This document shows, piece after piece, positions 4,216 to 60,442 of a stretch of DNA of 62,827 bases. Below the pieces are notes generated by a model. It worked only from the letters and a program-made list of their open reading frames with translations. It searched no databases and had not been told where the DNA came from. Position numbers and translations under genes: made by a program. Source of the stretch: an uncultured Candidatus Saccharibacteria bacterium (GTDB lineage: Bacteria; Patescibacteriota; Minisyncoccia; Phycocordibacterales; JAACPR01); contig CAYYEF010000001.1 of assembly GCA_964470825.1 (NCBI GenBank), positions 10,302 to 73,128 on the forward strand, in the 5' to 3' direction. Numbering within the stretch: the stretch's first letter is position 1; the number at the start of each line of letters is the position of its first letter.

Positions 4216-4217
4216 TG

Positions 4218-4290
4218 TCCGCCCAGTAGGACTCGAACCTACGACCCTCTCCTTAAAAGGGAGTTGCTCTACCACCTGAGCTATGGGCGG
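4218..4290 (-). tRNA. tRNA-Lys (anticodon UUU)
   Basis: Reverse complement folds as a cloverleaf: acceptor CCGCCCA/TGGGCGG, D arm GCTC/GAGC, anticodon loop CTTTTAA, T arm GTAGG-TTCGAGT-CCTAC, discriminator A. No encoded CCA. Confidence 0.9.
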
Positions 4291-49736: not shown

Positions 49737-51188
49737 ATGAAGAAAAATTTTTATATCACTACAACTTTACCGTACGTTAATGCGCCTCTTCATTTGGGAC
49801 ATGCAACTGAAATAATCAGAGCAGATGCTATTGCTCGTTATCAAAAATTACAAGGTAAAGAAGTTTTTTTTAATACCGGTACTGATGAGCATGGTCAGAA
49901 AATTTTTGAAGCTGCTCAAAAATCAGGTCAAACACCTAAAGAATATACTGATTTCTACGCAGATCTTTTTAAAGAAACTCTAAAGAAATTTGGAATAAGT
50001 TCAGATGCTAAGTATGTTCGTACCACAGATGATCATCATGTTGTCGGCGCTCAAGCTTTTTGGAAAAAATGTGCTGACAATGGTTTTATTTATAAAAAGA
50101 ATTATAAGACAAAATATTGTGTTGGTTGCGAAGAAGAAAAAACAGATAGTGAATTAGTTGATGGAAAATGTCCAATTCATCCAAATAGAGAACTTGAAAT
50201 TATTGAAGAAGAGAATTACTTTTTTAAATTTAGTGAATTTGGTGATCGTCTTTTAAAATATTATGAAAAAAATCCGAATTTTATAATTCCACAGTATCGC
50301 ATGAATGAAATGACTGAATTTATAAAAAGAGGTCTTCAAGATTTCAGTATTTCTAGATTAAAATCAAAAATGTCCTGGGGTATTCCTGTACCAGGGGATG
50401 AAGAACATGTTATGTACGTTTGGTTTGATGCTTTAACAAACTATATTTCTACACTTGGTTGGCCAAATAATAATGATGTTTTTGAAAAATTTTGGTCTGG
50501 TTCTGATTGCACAACAATTCAATATTGCGGAAAAGATAATACTCGTTTCCAGGGTGTAATGTGGCAAGCAATGCTTATGGCTGCTGATATTAAGAATACG
50601 GATAAAATAGTTGTTGACGGTTTTATTTTAGGTGAGGGTGGAATAAAGATGTCCAAGTCTTTGGGTAATACTATTGATCCTCTGGAAATAATTGAAGAAT
50701 ATGGAACTGAAGCTTTGCGCTATTTTGTTTTAAGAGAGTTTCATTCTTTTGAAGATACACCAGTTTCTAAAAACTCATTAAAAGAAAGCTTTAATGCCAA
50801 TCTGGCAAATGGTTTAGGAAATGTTGTTTCCCGTGTTATGAAGATGGCAGAAGGTTTAATTGAGCCTATCTCAGAATCAGAAAAATTAGAAATTAGACTT
50901 ATGGCAAGTGAATATGTTTTAGCTATAGATAATTTTGATTTACAAAAGGCTATGAATATAATTTGGTTTCATATTTCTGAAATAGATAAAACTATTACAG
51001 AAAAAGAACCTTTTAAGTTAGTAAAGACAGACAAAGAGGCTGCCTCAAAAATTATCAAAGACCAAGTTTTGAAAATAGACTTAATTGCAAAATTACTTGA
51101 ACCTTTTATGCCAGAAACTTCTAAAAAAATTGCAATGGCTATTAAAGAAAATAAAAAACCAGAAAATCTTTTTTCAAGAAAAGACTAA
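49737..51188 (+). CDS. metG: methionyl-tRNA synthetase (short form without the C-terminal tRNA-binding domain)
   Basis: PYVNAPLHLGHA (HIGH), zinc knuckle CVGCEE...CPIH, KMSKSLGN. 483 aa. Confidence 0.95.
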   Translation: MKKNFYITTTLPYVNAPLHLGHATEIIRADAIARYQKLQGKEVFFNTGTDEHGQKIFEAAQKSGQTPKEYTDFYADLFKETLKKFGISSDAKYVRTTDDHHVVGAQAFWKKCADNGFIYKKNYKTKYCVGCEEEKTDSELVDGKCPIHPNRELEIIEEENYFFKFSEFGDRLLKYYEKNPNFIIPQYRMNEMTEFIKRGLQDFSISRLKSKMSWGIPVPGDEEHVMYVWFDALTNYISTLGWPNNNDVFEKFWSGSDCTTIQYCGKDNTRFQGVMWQAMLMAADIKNTDKIVVDGFILGEGGIKMSKSLGNTIDPLEIIEEYGTEALRYFVLREFHSFEDTPVSKNSLKESFNANLANGLGNVVSRVMKMAEGLIEPISESEKLEIRLMASEYVLAIDNFDLQKAMNIIWFHISEIDKTITEKEPFKLVKTDKEAASKIIKDQVLKIDLIAKLLEPFMPETSKKIAMAIKENKKPENLFSRKD

Positions 51189-51221: not shown

Positions 51222-52067
51222 ATGAATAAATTTTTAGATATACATTCTCATTTAGATTATCCGGAATATCAGTCTGATTTCGAGTCTATTATTTATAAAA
51301 TGAGAGAATTAGATATTGGAACGATCACTATCGGCACTGATTTTGCTTCTGCAGAAAGAGCAGTTGATCTTGCTAATAAATACGAAAATATTTGGGCATG
51401 TATTGGTATTCATCCAGCAGATAATCATAAAGAAAAATGGAATGAAGAGGGTTTTGAGAAGCTTGTTCAAAATAATAAAGTAGTAGCCATTGGGGAGTGC
51501 GGTCTCGATTTTTTTAGATTGCCAGTCAATCAAAATACTATTGAACCAGATGCTCAAGAAATTATTTTTGAAAAAGAAAGACAACAAGAATTATTTGAAA
51601 AACAAATTGAATTTGCAATTAAGTATGATAAACCATTAATGATTCATTGTCGTGATGCTTATAAAGAAGTTTATGATACGTTAGTCAGGTATAAGGTAGG
51701 GGATTTAAGTCAAAAATCTTTTAATGGTAATAAAGGATCTAATTTAAAAATCCACTTACATTTTTTTGCTGGCGATATAGAGGTTGCAAAAAAATTTTTA
51801 GAATTAGACGCTACTTTTTCTTTTACAGGAGTGATTACTTTTACTAATCAATATGATGAAGTAATAAAATTTTTACCTTTGGAAAAAATTATGTCTGAAA
51901 CAGATTCGCCCTTTGTAGCCCCGGTACCTTATAGGGGAAGGAGAAATGAACCAAGTTATGTTATAGAAGTAATTAAAAAATTGGCTGAATTGAAAAAGAT
52001 ATCTTTTGAACAGATGAATGAATGTTTAATTAAAAATACTCTCAGAGTTTTTACTCTAAAACAGTAG
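51222..52067 (+). CDS. tatD: TatD-family metal-dependent hydrolase/DNase
   Basis: DIHSHLD, GECGLDF, MIHCRDA, HFFAG and ETDSPF motifs. Confidence 0.9.
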   Translation: MNKFLDIHSHLDYPEYQSDFESIIYKMRELDIGTITIGTDFASAERAVDLANKYENIWACIGIHPADNHKEKWNEEGFEKLVQNNKVVAIGECGLDFFRLPVNQNTIEPDAQEIIFEKERQQELFEKQIEFAIKYDKPLMIHCRDAYKEVYDTLVRYKVGDLSQKSFNGNKGSNLKIHLHFFAGDIEVAKKFLELDATFSFTGVITFTNQYDEVIKFLPLEKIMSETDSPFVAPVPYRGRRNEPSYVIEVIKKLAELKKISFEQMNECLIKNTLRVFTLKQ

Positions 52068-52081
52068 ATCCATAGTAAAAT

Positions 52082-52109
52082 TATTGACATATTTTAAATA
52101 TATGTTATT
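52082..52109 (+). promoter_or_regulatory. near-consensus sigma70 promoter (TTGACA, 16-nt spacer, TGtTATTAT)
   Basis: TTGACA at 52082-52087 and TATTAT at 52104-52109, preceded by TGT. No ORF follows. Confidence 0.6.
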
Positions 52110-52115
52110 ATCAAT

Positions 52116-52492
52116 CTGGGATAGGTACTTCAAATATCAAAATGCAATTGTGACGAAAACCCGCTTAGACGGACATACTGGAATATGGTTGGAATCTTTA
52201 AGGATAAGGTGAAAAACCAAAAGTGCTAGGTCAACTTGGATCCCTAGTGCTTCTTTAAATGAAACTGATAGAGGTAGTGTATGAACTCCTTTTCATAGGA
52301 GTCTTGGGTATAAAAGCCCGTCGGATTAAATAGCCGAAATATACGAAAAATATTTCAAAGTCTGGTATTTTGATACTTTTTGAAAGTTCTAGTCAGCAAG
52401 GGAAGCTGGCAAAATGTATAGTAAAGCCCGGCCAAAGAAAAGAAAGAGTTGTAACAATCACTCAATCTTAAATTTCTTGGCCGGGTATTTTT
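52116..52492 (+). ncRNA. candidate structured ncRNA of unknown class (about 380 nt)
   Basis: No ORF longer than 37 codons. Bounded by the promoter above and a terminator: 10-bp stem GCCCGGCCAA/TTGGCCGGGT (52424-52484) plus T8. Internal hairpins: 52221-52248, 52283-52300 (ACTCCT/AGGAGT), 52351-52383 and 52390-52408. The 5' end is estimated from the -10 box. Confidence 0.5.
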
Positions 52493-52532
52493 TTAATTGC
52501 CATTTAAAGCCTTTTATGATAATCTAACACGC

Positions 52533-53036
52533 ATGTCTAAAGAAAAGACAATGAACGAATCAAGCAAGCTTTACGAGCTTGGCTTCCATATTGTAGGCAC
52601 AATTGATTCAAACAAGGTTGCCAGCGTCATTGATGAAATTAAAAGCTTAATTACAACTCATCATGGCGACATTGTTCGAGAGGGTGAAGTGCGTGAAATT
52701 ACCCTTGCTTACACTATGGTAAAACACGTTGCAGGCGTGAATAAAAAATATAATCAATCATTTTTTGATTGGATTAAATTTAATATGAACCCTGAGGACG
52801 TGGTCAATCTGAAAACTGCTCTAGATTCAAATGAAAATATTATAAGATTTATTCTTGTTAAGACTGTTAATGATGATGAGCACAGTACATCAAAATTGGT
52901 AGAATTAGAAGAATCAGAAGAAGATGAAGTTTCAGTTAGTGAAACTGCACCAGAAAAAATAGAAGAATCAGAAGAAGTTTCTGTAAAAGCTAAAGACCAA
53001 GAAATCGATGAGGCTATCGATGAAATGGTTAAATAA
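52533..53036 (+). CDS. rpsF: 30S ribosomal protein S6 with an acidic C-terminal tail
   Basis: YELGFHIV...REGEVREITLAYTM...FDWIKF pattern, first gene of the rpsF-ssb-rpsR order. Start uncertain (ATG 52533 or 52551). The TTG at 52497 overlaps a TTGCCA box. Confidence 0.8.
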   Translation: MSKEKTMNESSKLYELGFHIVGTIDSNKVASVIDEIKSLITTHHGDIVREGEVREITLAYTMVKHVAGVNKKYNQSFFDWIKFNMNPEDVVNLKTALDSNENIIRFILVKTVNDDEHSTSKLVELEESEEDEVSVSETAPEKIEESEEVSVKAKDQEIDEAIDEMVK

Positions 53037-59870: not shown

Positions 59871-59897
59871 AAATTAAATTAAAAATACACCTATATA

Positions 59898-59926
59898 TTG
59901 ATAAAAAGCTGAAAATTTGCTATACT
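59898..59926 (+). promoter_or_regulatory. sigma70-like promoter (TTGATA, 17-nt spacer, TATACT)
   Basis: TTGATA at 59898-59903 and TATACT at 59921-59926, about 515 nt upstream of the next start codon. Confidence 0.55.
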
Positions 59927-59932
59927 AGTCCC

Positions 59933-60442
59933 GATAACTCTATTACAGGGGTTATCCACATTAGGGGCTTCAACCAATTAAGGTAAAGGTCTATAATGTT
60001 GATAACGGTTGGACGGGAGTAATTGTTGCACTGCGCGGTCATTGACAATCAAATAAAAAATGTCACTTGATTGCTTTGGTAATTTAAGAAAGAAATTCTA
60101 ATTCCTTTACGGTTAGTAAAAGATAGAAAAACTAATTCTAAAAAGCCGAGCTCTCAATATACATAATGTCGAGTCTGTAATTATTTCACTAAAAATAATT
60201 ACAGTTTATGTGTTTGAGAAATTGGTGATTGATTATCACATCCCGCGCCGATACGCGGTATCCCCGAATTTCAGAAATGTCTGAATGATTGGTTAGGTGT
60301 CGGACTAACTGGCTACTTCCGTGAGAAGAAGTGGTCTGCAAAGAAAATTATTATTAAACGTTTATTAGTAAGAAACATAAATTGATCCAAAATTTTTTAA
60401 AAGTTAACGGATCATTTTATTAATCAAAAAAAATTATAAAAC
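59933..60442 (+). ncRNA. long structured 5' leader and/or independent ncRNA upstream of the surface-protein gene
   Basis: About 510 nt with no ORF. Helices: TCCCG/CGGGA (59929-60018) enclosing GATAAC/GTTATC and CAACC/GGTTG; CAATCAA/TTGATTG (60046-60073); an 11-bp hairpin at 60175-60204; and a GC-richer block at 60240-60340 with four short hairpins. Confidence 0.45.
60175..60216 (+). terminator. terminator-like hairpin inside the leader (possible attenuator or 3' end of an sRNA)
   Basis: Perfect 11-bp stem CTGTAATTATT/AATAATTACAG with loop TCACTAAA, followed by TTTATGTGTTT. Confidence 0.4.

What the first reader, a model, noticed from the sequence alone, without database searches (positions are those of the whole stretch)
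52082..52492. Unassigned roughly 380-nt structured RNA gene with its own consensus promoter and terminator, upstream of rpsF-ssb-rpsR
The 465-nt gap between tatD and rpsF has no credible ORF; the longest ATG frame is 37 codons. It starts with a near-perfect promoter (TTGACA, 16 nt, TGtTATTAT) and ends in a 10-bp GC stem plus a T8 run.

In between are at least four clean hairpins and several G-rich single-stranded motifs:
- GTGCTAGG/CCTAGTGC
- ACTCCT/AGGAGT
- TTTCAAA/TTTGAAA with a nested GTAT/ATAC
- GTCAGC/GCTGGC
- motifs GGATAAGGTGAAAAACC and, twice, AAAGCCCG

rpsF appears to have its own promoter-like element (TTGCCA...GATAAT) after the terminator, so this looks like an independent transcript. 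Its size is in the RNase P / tmRNA range, but it fits neither class (see rejected items). It could be a novel large ncRNA or an unusually long attenuating leader of the S6 operon.
Basis: seen in the sequence. Interest (0 to 1): 0.65.

Follow-up and report, generated by a model that had tools for sequence, protein, structure and literature searches.

The report
New structured RNA gene in Patescibacteria
The gap between tatD and rpsF holds a separately transcribed RNA gene of about 377 bases, with a conserved multi-arm fold, that matches no catalogued RNA family and is so far seen only in one small clade of ultra-small (CPR/Patescibacteria) bacteria; its function is unknown.

Summary
Window 52084-52494 (+) has a near-consensus extended -10 promoter, about 377 nt with no conserved ORF, and a long-stem terminator. 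rpsF then has its own promoter and almost no leader.

I recovered 10 further distinct homologues, always between tatD and rpsF, from metagenomic relatives (S6 75-94% identical). All keep the promoter and terminator. Their primary sequences are barely alignable.

All 11 fold better than dinucleotide shuffles (z -2.2 to -7.3). A covariance-model alignment of the core gives 94% paired cells and compensatory changes in 13 of 16 pairs. RNAalifold predicts the same four helices independently.

- **Architecture:** closing helix P1, helix P2, a three-way junction with conserved purine-rich strands (GGUUGGAA, AGAnGUAG, CGAAAAA), two variable arms, a 3' hairpin with an AAGGGA loop, and the terminator.
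- **Known families:** Rfam 15 gives no meaningful hit in the window or in 10 homologous loci. RNase P, tmRNA, 6S, SRP, riboswitch and rpsF-leader memberships were examined and not met.
- **Distribution:** the element is missing at this site in one nested subclade and in more distant Patescibacteria.

Verdict: a real, independently transcribed, structured ncRNA of a new, narrowly distributed family. Its function is unknown.

The parts
52084..52111 (+). Promoter of the RNA: -35 TTGACA (52084-89), 16-nt spacer, extended -10 TG (52103-04) + TATTAT (52106-11)
   Evidence: 11 of 12 matches with TG. The same TTGAC[AT]-N13-TG-TTATTAT layout sits in front of every homologue.
52118..52494 (+). Predicted transcript, about 377 nt, starting GGG about 7 nt after the -10 and ending in the U-tract
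   Evidence: The ends are inferred from the promoter and terminator, not mapped. MFE -100.4 kcal/mol, z -3.46. No conserved ORF.
52127..52143 (+). P1 5' strand (ACUUCAAAUAUCAAAAU) of the long closing helix; pairs with 52366-52386
   Evidence: Present in the MFE. Helices in the equivalent place occur in 8 homologues, from a hand alignment. The shuffle control shows only about half are individually significant in this AU-rich sequence, so support is moderate.
52144..52178 (+). 5' interior region with the ACGAAAA motif and small or variable hairpins
   Evidence: Read from the sequences. It varies in length among homologues and its pairing is not resolved.
52179..52186 (+). P2 5' strand (UGGAAUAU); pairs with 52350-52357 (AUAUUUCA)
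   Evidence: The 3' strand starts right after GAAAA(A) in at least 8 of 10 homologues, and helices of 8-11 bp occur in win, L022, L067, L003 and L078. Counts are and the control; support is moderate.
52187..52194 (+). Junction strand J1, GGUUGGAA (conserved GGKYNGAA; T-loop-like UGGAA)
   Evidence: Conserved in 9 of 10 homologues.
52195..52272 (+). Arm A. Short invariant helix UCU/AGA (52195-97 with 52270-72; tentative). Variable helix UUAAGG/CUUUAA (52198-203 with 52253-58). Hairpin GGU-GAAAA-ACC (52208-18). Hairpin GUGCUAGG/CCUAGUGC (52223-50). Conserved 3' internal loop AUGAAACUGAU (52259-69).
   Evidence: plus hand comparison of homologues. The loop motif [A/U]GAAAY is conserved in 8 of 10. 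The UCU/AGA helix never varies, so covariation neither supports nor tests it.
52273..52276 (+). Junction strand J2: n-GUA of the conserved AGAnGUAG block
   Evidence: AGA, G, U, A and G are invariant columns in alignment A4.
52277..52344 (+). Arm B, a four-way junction. Closing helix Pc GUGUAU/AUAUAC (52277-82 with 52339-44). Hairpin Ha ACUCCU/AGGAGU (52285-302). Hairpin Hb GGGU-AUAAAA-GCCC (52306-19). Hairpin Hc UCGG/CCGA (52321-37).
   Evidence: The CM R1 hit at window 52259-52355 scores 53 bits, E 1e-7. In the CM alignment 94% of cells pair and 13 of 16 pairs show double changes. RNAalifold predicts the same helices.
52345..52349 (+). Junction strand J3, GAAAA of the conserved CGAAAA(A) block
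   Evidence: Invariant columns in A4 and A5.
52350..52386 (+). P2 3' strand (52350-57), the semi-conserved GUCUGG linker, and the P1 3' strand (52366-86)
52392..52409 (+). 3' hairpin GUCAGC-AAGGGA-GCUGGC with a purine-rich, Shine-Dalgarno-like loop
   Evidence: In 8 homologues the stem changes on both sides at all 6 pairs while the loop keeps A/GGGA/GAGA. The L066/L078 subgroup lacks it.
52426..52494 (+). Intrinsic terminator: long stem GCCCGGCCAAAGAAA/UUUCUUGGCCGGGU with a 31-nt loop, then T7
   Evidence: All terminator cells pair in 10 homologues, with conserved U-G pairs that would be A-C mismatches on the other strand.
52497..52535 (+). Not part of the RNA. This is rpsF's own promoter (TTGCCA ... 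TGATAAT) and its ATG at 52533, which leaves a 5' UTR of about 10 nt or less.
   Evidence: Conserved in 15 loci, including 4 without the RNA.

Best explanation
**What it is.** This is a stand-alone gene for a stable, structured non-coding RNA of about 377 nt here and 334-494 nt in relatives. It belongs to a family not yet catalogued. The family is confined, as far as these data reach, to one family-level clade of Patescibacteria (CPR), where it sits between tatD and rpsF.

**Shown here.**
- It has its own strong sigma-70-type extended -10 promoter and its own terminator.
- The + strand is the functional strand.
- A fold is conserved while the sequence diverges.
- No ORF is conserved.
- It matches no Rfam family.

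**Fold.** The arm B four-way junction, the 3' hairpin and the terminator are well supported. P1 and P2 have moderate support.
- P1 closes the molecule and P2 leads into a three-way junction.
- The junction strands are the most conserved part of the molecule: GGUUGGAA, AGAnGUAG and CGAAAAA, together with an internal loop [A/U]GAAAY.
- Arm B is a four-way junction. One homologue reduces it to a tetraloop hairpin, so its periphery is dispensable.
- After P1 come a hairpin with an AAGGGA loop and the terminator hairpin.

**Inferred mechanism (not shown).**
- The RNA is made abundantly from the consensus promoter and acts in trans.
- The invariant purine-rich junction core, stabilised by A-rich or GNRA-like loops on the variable arms, is the functional site. 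It would bind a partner, either a protein or another RNA.
- The terminator hairpin would protect the 3' end.
- It does not work as a leader of rpsF.
For: **Transcription unit.**
- The promoter matches 11 of 12 positions with TG.
- Promoter and terminator are present in all 11 distinct homologues.

**Independence from rpsF.**
- rpsF has its own conserved promoter ending 9-10 nt before the ATG, in loci with and without the RNA.
- The element is absent at the same site in L024, L031, L070 and L074.

**Structure.**
- z-scores run from -2.2 to -7.3 in 11 of 11 homologues; for the window z is -3.46.
- Hand core alignment: 93% of cells pair, 13 of 16 pairs show double changes, and slid controls give 27-44%.
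- Covariance model R1 realigned the real sequences: 94% paired, 13 of 16 double changes, 0-1 of 500 shuffles as high, slid controls 25-41%.
- RNAalifold independently returns the same four helices.
- P1, P2, the 3' hairpin and the terminator: 98% paired, 21 of 25 pairs with double changes.

**Strand.** Many G-U pairs occur on the + strand, and the promoter and terminator point the same way.

**Not a known family.** Searches give only noise hits.

**Sequence diverges while the fold stays.** nhmmer with the window sequence finds only 3 of the homologues, with E from 2e-14 down to 2.5e-6, although the S6 proteins are 75-94% identical.
Against: - There are no expression data, so the transcript ends are inferred.
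- Only 11 distinct sequences are available, all from one clade. The covarying cells are therefore not independent events.
- The P1, P2 and 3' hairpin alignment was made by hand. A shuffle control shows that in this AU-rich sequence helices as long as P1 and P2 arise by chance in about half of the homologues.
- The UCU/AGA helix is invariant, so covariation cannot test it.
- The most divergent homologue (L001/L083) is not found by the model and I could not fit it to the fold.
- The L066/L078 subgroup lacks P1 and the AAGGGA hairpin.
- Nothing here identifies a partner or an activity. The proposed mechanism is inference only.
Confidence: 0.8

Rival explanations
1. It is a long cis-acting leader or attenuator, riboswitch-like or binding a ribosomal protein, that controls rpsF-ssb-rpsR through regulated read-through of its terminator.
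For: It lies directly upstream of rpsF on the same strand in every case. It ends in a terminator. Its conserved junction could be a binding pocket.
Against: - rpsF keeps its own conserved promoter downstream of the terminator and is nearly leaderless. That promoter is the same in relatives lacking the element.
- No antiterminator is evident. An independent hairpin and a linker of about 15 nt separate P1 from the terminator.
- Terminator stems are long and G+C-rich.
- A nested subclade (L024, L031, L070) has the same operon without the element.
- No Rfam riboswitch, T-box or ribosomal-protein leader hit appears.
Confidence: 0.07
2. It is an extremely diverged copy of a housekeeping RNA that Rfam models miss: RNase P RNA, 6S, tmRNA or SRP RNA. 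RNase P RNA is already known to be diverged in the CPR.
For: - The size, strong promoter, closing helix and variable peripheral hairpins resemble RNase P RNA.
- Lui et al. 2021 (PMC8172020) report that 10 of 35 complete CPR genomes needed sub-threshold RF00010 scores to find RNase P RNA.
- The window sequence ACGAAAACCCGCUUA fits the CR-V pattern as I recall it (own knowledge).
- None of these four RNAs is found elsewhere in the 62.8-kb window.
Against: - No RNase P, 6S, tmRNA or SRP hit appears even at E<=10 with permissive filters, in the window or in 10 homologous loci.
- No P4-type pseudoknot exists. In no homologue is the strand after GGAA-UCU complementary to the strand after CGAAAA. Instead P2 closes an ordinary three-way junction.
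- The CR-V-like match is not conserved in L084 or L072.
- ARAGORN finds no tmRNA, and there is no tRNA-like 5'/3' pairing or T-arm.
- The topology is branched, not the 6S rod with a central bubble.
- The sequence diverges far faster than the RNase P core does.
- The gene is missing at this site in a nested subclade.
Confidence: 0.06
3. It has no function as an RNA. It would be a decaying remnant, spacer or selfish insertion whose hairpins reflect composition, or it encodes a small protein.
For: The distribution is narrow, the primary sequence changes fast, and one subclade lacks it. AU-rich sequence forms many chance helices.
Against: - Compensatory changes keep four anchored helices in the CM alignment.
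- Promoter, terminator and junction motifs are invariant across lineages whose TatD C-terminal regions are only 60-89% identical.
- z-scores are negative in 11 of 11 homologues.
- No ORF is conserved in length, frame or strand.
- There are no flanking repeats and no second copy in the window or the loci.
Confidence: 0.04

Closest known systems
Bacterial RNase P RNA (Rfam RF00010/RF00011), including the diverged CPR forms described by Lui et al. 2021 (PMC8172020)
   Same: It is a stand-alone gene of 330-490 nt with its own promoter and terminator. It has a terminal closing helix, A-rich conserved junction strands, a four-way junction with hairpins, and peripheral helices that come and go between relatives.
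   Different: There is no P4 pseudoknot, no conserved CR-I to CR-V blocks and no Rfam score. The core sequence is not conserved at RNase P levels. The element is absent from the locus in a nested subclade.
Orphan large structured bacterial ncRNAs found by comparative genomics (own knowledge): OLE, ROOL, GOLLD, raiA
   Same: It is a long, intricately folded RNA defined by covariation only. It has conserved junction nucleotides, A-rich or GNRA-like loops and a narrow phylogenetic range, and its biochemical function is unknown at discovery.
   Different: No sequence or structure match to any of them appears in Rfam 15. The host phylum is different (Patescibacteria). The context is different too: a fixed housekeeping locus, not phage or tRNA neighbourhoods. 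It is also smaller than OLE, ROOL or GOLLD.
6S RNA (RF00013)
   Same: It is a non-essential, fast-evolving, abundant RNA recognised by structure rather than sequence, with its 5' and 3' regions pairing in a closing stem.
   Different: 6S is a rod of about 180 nt with a central bubble. This RNA is twice as long and branched, with a three-way and a four-way junction. Rfam gives no hit.
rpsF (S6:S18) ribosomal-protein leader (own knowledge: a short autoregulatory structure in the rpsF 5' UTR)
   Same: It lies immediately upstream of rpsF on the same strand.
   Different: The leader is short and lies inside the rpsF mRNA. Here a terminator and the rpsF promoter lie between the RNA and rpsF, and the rpsF 5' UTR is about 10 nt or less.
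[quoted passage not shown] 2013, PMC3664808)
   Same: Two conserved pentamers fit the module's core pattern of UG..A and AG..A. They are J1 (UGGAA or UGAAA) and the internal loop ([A/U]GAAA), and they flank a 3-bp helix.
   Different: Only the sequence pattern resembles the module. Several homologues break the pattern (L067, L075, L076, L078). The order and strand placement differ from the known modules. Nothing three-dimensional was tested.

Membership tests
Bacterial RNase P RNA | Match to the covariance models RF00010/RF00011 | tested here: not met
   No RNase P hit at gathering score or at E<=10 with permissive filters, in the window region or in 10 homologous loci. Thresholds as low as the 5 bits used by Lui et al. 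could not be run.
Bacterial RNase P RNA | P4 long-range pseudoknot between the strands that follow the two A-rich junctions (J3/4 and J2/4) | tested here: not met
   By hand in 10 homologues: the strand after GGAA (UCUUUAAGG and equivalents) is not complementary to the strand after CGAAAA. The latter pairs with the strand before J1, forming an ordinary nested helix, P2.
Bacterial RNase P RNA | Near-invariant CR-I and CR-V sequence blocks | tested here: not met
   The window's ACGAAAACCCGCUUA fits the CR-V pattern, but L084 (ACGAAAAAAUUUACA) and L072 (ACGAAAAACUAACUA) do not. The consensus patterns come from my own knowledge.
Bacterial RNase P RNA | Pre-tRNA 5' cleavage activity; an essential single-copy gene | not testable with these tools
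   Indirect evidence only: the gene is absent at this locus in the L024/L031/L070 subclade. It could be elsewhere in those genomes.
tmRNA | tRNA-like domain (5' and 3' ends forming an acceptor stem, plus a T-arm) and a tag-peptide reading frame | tested here: not met
   ARAGORN finds no tmRNA in the window. Rfam gives no tmRNA hit. The 3' end is a terminator hairpin and no ORF is conserved.
6S RNA | Rod-like helix of about 180 nt with a large central bubble; match to RF00013 | tested here: not met
   The fold is branched, with three-way and four-way junctions. Length is 334-494 nt. Rfam gives no hit.
SRP RNA (4.5S / large bacterial) | Conserved domain IV (helix 8) motif with a GNRA tetraloop and symmetric and asymmetric loops | tested here: not met
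   Rfam gives no hit. The only similar hairpin, GUCAGC-AAGGGA-GCUGGC, is a plain stem with a 6-8-nt loop.
Riboswitch / T-box / ribosomal-protein leader (cis-regulatory) | Lies in the 5' UTR of the regulated gene, with an expression platform (terminator versus antiterminator, or SD sequestration) coupled to the sensor | tested here: not met
   The rpsF promoter lies downstream of the terminator and rpsF is nearly leaderless. No antiterminator pairing was found by inspection. No Rfam cis-regulatory hit appears. Read-through was not measured.
Guide or scaffold RNAs of mobile elements (IscB/TnpB omega RNA = HEARO, IS110 bridge RNA, retron ncRNA) | Adjacent gene for the partner protein (IscB, TnpB, IS110 recombinase or reverse transcriptase) | tested here: not met
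   The neighbours are always metG, tatD, rpsF, ssb, rpsR and efp. Rfam gives no HEARO or related hit.
New family (this report) | Conserved AGAnGUAG - helix Pc - (0-3 hairpins) - Pc' - CGAAAA(A) core, preceded by an [A/U]GAAAY loop | tested here: met
   Model R1 finds the window copy (53 bits) and 9 other loci, plus a weak hit at the right place in L076. It finds nothing else in 390 kb, including 60 rpsF loci of other Patescibacteria. A descriptor scan gives the same result.

The most novel reading that the evidence does not exclude
The invariant junction would be a catalytic or RNA-docking core, not just a protein-binding site. The two conserved T-loop-like pentamers are UGGAA in J1 and [A/U]GAAA in the internal loop, and they flank the 3-bp UCU/AGA helix. 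[quoted passage not shown] If so, this would be a fourth, independent class of tRNA-binding RNA, or a new ribozyme acting on tRNA, in bacteria with minimal genomes.
Probability: 0.08. Interest if true: 0.9.

Novelty: categorically new. Interest (0 to 1): 0.58.

Why it matters
- **Rarity.** Large, intricately folded bacterial RNAs are rare. The well-known ones have turned out to be ribozymes, ribonucleoprotein scaffolds or global regulators.
- **Host.** Patescibacteria have tiny genomes of about 0.5-1 Mb with little spare DNA. A 340-490-nt RNA gene kept under a consensus promoter, with structure-preserving evolution, implies a real cellular role.
- **Annotation.** It shows that CPR genomes hold RNA families invisible to current annotation. 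It also gives a defined covariance-model core for finding more members.
- **Limits.** So far it is known from 11 sequences of one clade and has no functional clue, which keeps its present impact modest.

Tried and rejected
- **Rfam.** I ran gathering and E<=10 scans of the window and of 10 homologous loci. They returned only noise: snoRNA and miRNA models, mostly over the terminator or inside the S6 gene.
- **ARAGORN for tmRNA.** None found.
- **Plain MAFFT E-INS-i of the full RNAs followed by RNAalifold.** Only the terminator was recovered because the alignment was too poor. Q-INS-i was not installed.
- **MAFFT on real core segments.** It gave shifts of one base in the 3' strands. I therefore built equal-length 'core' pseudo-sequences, using real nucleotides with the variable loops cut out. 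These served as the seed, and the model then realigned the real sequences.
- **RNase P reading.** It was prompted by CR-I- and CR-V-like strings and by PMC8172020. I rejected it for lack of P4 and lack of conservation of those strings.
- **Hammerhead, TPP, group I and T-box resemblances.** The short strings involved are not conserved among homologues and have no Rfam support.
- **16S h22-h23 mimicry (S6:S18 site).** GGUGAAA and GUAGAG resemble 16S sequence, but they are not conserved in L022 or L067.
- **Search for copies elsewhere.** A descriptor scan and the CM over the window plus 75 loci found none.
- **IMG/VR pattern scans.** They gave 9 matches, about the number I estimated would arise by chance. 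All scored 22 bits or less with R1, so I rejected them.
- **Distant Patescibacteria rpsF loci.** In most, the gap upstream of rpsF is under 200 nt, and R1 finds the element in none of them.
- **L001/L083.** I could not fit it to the common fold.
- **Literature.** Searches for CPR or Parcubacteria ncRNAs found nothing describing this RNA.

Full report
**1. The observation**

tatD ends at 52067 and the rpsF ATG is at 52533, so the gap is 465 nt. No ORF in the gap exceeds 42 codons, and the longest ATG ORF is 37 codons.

The promoter is the best sigma-70-type site in the surrounding 3 kb. It reads TTGACA (52084-89), a 16-nt spacer, TG, then TATTAT (52106-11), matching 11 of 12 positions.

The terminator pairs GCCCGGCCAA(A)GAAA with UUUCUUGGCCGGGU (52426-86) and is followed by T7 (52488-94). 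The simple scanner misses it because its loop is 31 nt, but the minimum-free-energy fold forms it.

The predicted RNA (52118-52494, + strand) folds at -100.4 kcal/mol with z = -3.46. The reverse strand gives z = -2.68.

**2. Organism and relatives**

The S6 protein has relatives only in metagenome collections: 27 hits, none from NCBI genomes. In GTDB species representatives the best S6 matches are 44-48% identical. They come from MAGs labelled Parcubacteria, Paceibacterota, Nomurabacteria, Saccharibacteria or Patescibacteria. The window therefore comes from a poorly sampled Patescibacteria (CPR) lineage.

Using the loci and twelve exact-protein look-ups, I found the same metG-tatD-[gap]-rpsF-ssb-rpsR arrangement in relatives whose S6 is 75-94% identical.

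Ten further distinct versions of the gap element were recovered:

| Locus | Length (nt) | Note |
|---|---|---|
| L084 | 346 | |
| L072 | 453 | |
| L075 | 494 | |
| L022 | 334 | |
| L067 | 391 | |
| L066 | 377 | |
| L078 | 338 | |
| L076 | 336 | |
| L003 | 460 | |
| L001 | 389 | near-identical second copy in L083 |

These sequences are shown. Every version starts after a TTGAC[AT]-N13-TG-TTATTAT-type promoter and ends in a G+C-rich terminator.

Primary sequence is poorly conserved. nhmmer with the window sequence detects only three of the homologues.

**3. Independence from rpsF**

A second promoter, aaATTGCCA...TGATAATct, lies downstream of the terminator and ends 9-10 nt before the rpsF ATG. 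It is conserved in all 15 loci examined. These include four (L024, L031, L070, L074) where the tatD stop codon is followed directly by this promoter and the RNA element is absent. rpsF is therefore nearly leaderless and does not need the element.

TatD C-terminal identities show how the absences are distributed.
- L024, L031 and L070 form one subclade, 88-93% identical to each other, nested among RNA-bearing lineages.
- L074 (no RNA) and L003 (with RNA) are both deep branches.
- The simplest history is one gain at the base of the clade and one or two losses or relocations.
- In more distant Patescibacteria most gaps upstream of rpsF are under 200 nt, and the model in section 4 finds no copy there.

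**4. Structure**

All 11 homologues fold better than dinucleotide shuffles, with z from -2.2 to -7.3.

By comparing the sequences I derived a common architecture. Coordinates are given for the window.
- **P1:** 52127-43 pairs with 52366-86.
- **5' interior region:** variable.
- **P2:** 52179-86 pairs with 52350-57.
- **J1:** GGUUGGAA.
- **Arm A:** 52195-52272. It contains a conserved 3' internal loop [A/U]GAAAY.
- **J2:** AGAnGUAG.
- **Arm B:** 52277-52344. It is a four-way junction of Pc, Ha, Hb and Hc.
- **J3:** CGAAAA(A).
- **3' module:** a hairpin with an AAGGGA-type loop (52392-409), then the terminator.

To test arm B objectively I made an 83-column seed from real nucleotides with the variable loops cut out. 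From it I built covariance model R1 and let it realign the real sequences.

| Test | Paired cells | Pairs with changes on both sides | Controls |
|---|---|---|---|
| Hand seed A4 | 93% | 13 of 16 | slid partners 27-44% paired |
| CM alignment A5 | 94% | 13 of 16 | 0-1 of 500 shuffles as high; slid partners 25-41% paired |

RNAalifold run on alignment A5 predicts the same four helices.

L076 replaces the whole interior of arm B with a 4-bp stem and a CGAG loop. The periphery of arm B is therefore dispensable, and the junction is the conserved core.

For P1, P2, the 3' hairpin and the terminator, a hand alignment gives 98% paired cells and 21 of 25 pairs with double changes. A shuffle control tempers this: in this AU-rich sequence, helices as long as P1 and P2 arise by chance in about half of the homologues. 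I rate P1 and P2 as moderately supported. I rate the 3' hairpin, the terminator and arm B as well supported.

The UCU/AGA helix never varies, so covariation cannot test it.

G-U pairs are frequent on the + strand, for example a conserved U-G in the terminator. This fits the promoter and terminator orientation.

The L066/L078 subgroup lacks P1 and the AAGGGA hairpin. L001/L083 could not be fitted to the fold.

**5. What it is not**

Rfam 15 gives no hit at gathering scores. At E<=10 it gives only noise, both in the window region and in ten homologous loci.

RNase P needed a check by hand. Lui et al. 2021 (PMC8172020) showed that CPR RNase P RNAs can fall below the Rfam thresholds.
- The defining P4 pseudoknot is absent. 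The strand after J1 never complements the strand after J3, and P2 is an ordinary nested helix.
- The CR-V-like string in the window is not conserved in L084 or L072.
- The core evolves far faster than the RNase P core does.

The other candidates also fail.
- **tmRNA:** none found by ARAGORN; there is no tRNA-like domain and no conserved ORF.
- **6S RNA:** the topology here is branched, not a rod.
- **SRP RNA:** there is no domain IV motif.
- **Cis-regulatory leaders:** excluded by section 3.
- **Mobile-element guide RNAs:** the neighbours are always housekeeping genes.

No second copy exists in the window, and none in 75 other loci totalling 390 kb. Two pattern scans of IMG/VR returned 9 matches, about the number I estimated would arise by chance, and all scored 22 bits or less with R1.

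**6. Most likely mechanism**

Shown here: the element is an independent gene with a conserved fold on the + strand, and the junction strands are its most conserved part.

Inferred: it is an abundant, stable, trans-acting RNA. Its purine-rich three-way-junction core is the functional site, braced by A-rich or GNRA-like loops on the variable arms. The terminator hairpin would serve as a 3' protective element. The partner is unknown.

One lead from sequence alone concerns J1 (UGGAA or UGAAA) and the internal loop ([A/U]GAAA). [quoted passage not shown] Several homologues break the pattern and nothing three-dimensional was tested, so I give this reading about 8%.

**7. Novelty and score**

No catalogued family fits after explicit tests, so I file this as a new RNA family. 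The general kind, an orphan structured bacterial ncRNA, is familiar.

Interest is moderate to high for RNA biologists. It is tempered by the very narrow distribution (11 sequences, one clade), the absence of expression data and the lack of any functional clue.

Noticed in passing
window 4217-4290 (-): ARAGORN calls this a 'tRNA-Stop' with anticodon UUA. Read by hand in the canonical register, the acceptor stem is CCGCCCA/UGGGCGG, the anticodon stem is ACUCC/GGAGA and the loop is CUUUUAA. That gives anticodon UUU, so it is an ordinary tRNA-Lys. The suppressor call looks like a one-base register artefact.
   Followed up: partly
window 59871-60442 (+): This is a second ORF-free gap, 572 nt long, upstream of a 574-aa ORF. 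It has a TG-extended promoter-like site at 59898-59926. Its 510-nt fold has z = -5.0 and Rfam gives no hit. It may be another unassigned structured RNA or a long structured 5' UTR.
   Followed up: partly
window 52497-52535, and the same place in 14 other loci: rpsF is nearly leaderless. The conserved TTGCCA...TGATAAT promoter ends 9-10 nt before the ATG, and no Shine-Dalgarno sequence is present.
   Followed up: partly
L067 about 2650-2661; the same place in L068 and L069: Three otherwise identical copies of the RNA from different samples differ only in a poly-C run of 8, 9 or 10 C in the 5' domain. This could be homopolymer length variation or an assembly or sequencing error.
   Followed up: no
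L024 2930-2965; L031 about 2385-2395; L070 about 1370-1390: In one subclade, whose TatD C-terminal regions are 88-93% identical to each other, the tatD stop codon abuts the rpsF promoter and the RNA gene is missing. Whether the gene moved elsewhere in those genomes is unknown.
   Followed up: partly
L066 1104-1679, L075 900-1496, L083 136-297 (- strand): Some relatives carry a gene for a prepilin-type N-terminal methylation domain protein (PF07963), inserted between metG and tatD on the opposite strand. The window has no such gene.
   Followed up: no
window 49737-51188 and 52533-53036: MetRS is short, at 483 aa. S6 carries a long acidic C-terminal tail rich in E and D. Both features recur in the relatives.
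   Followed up: no
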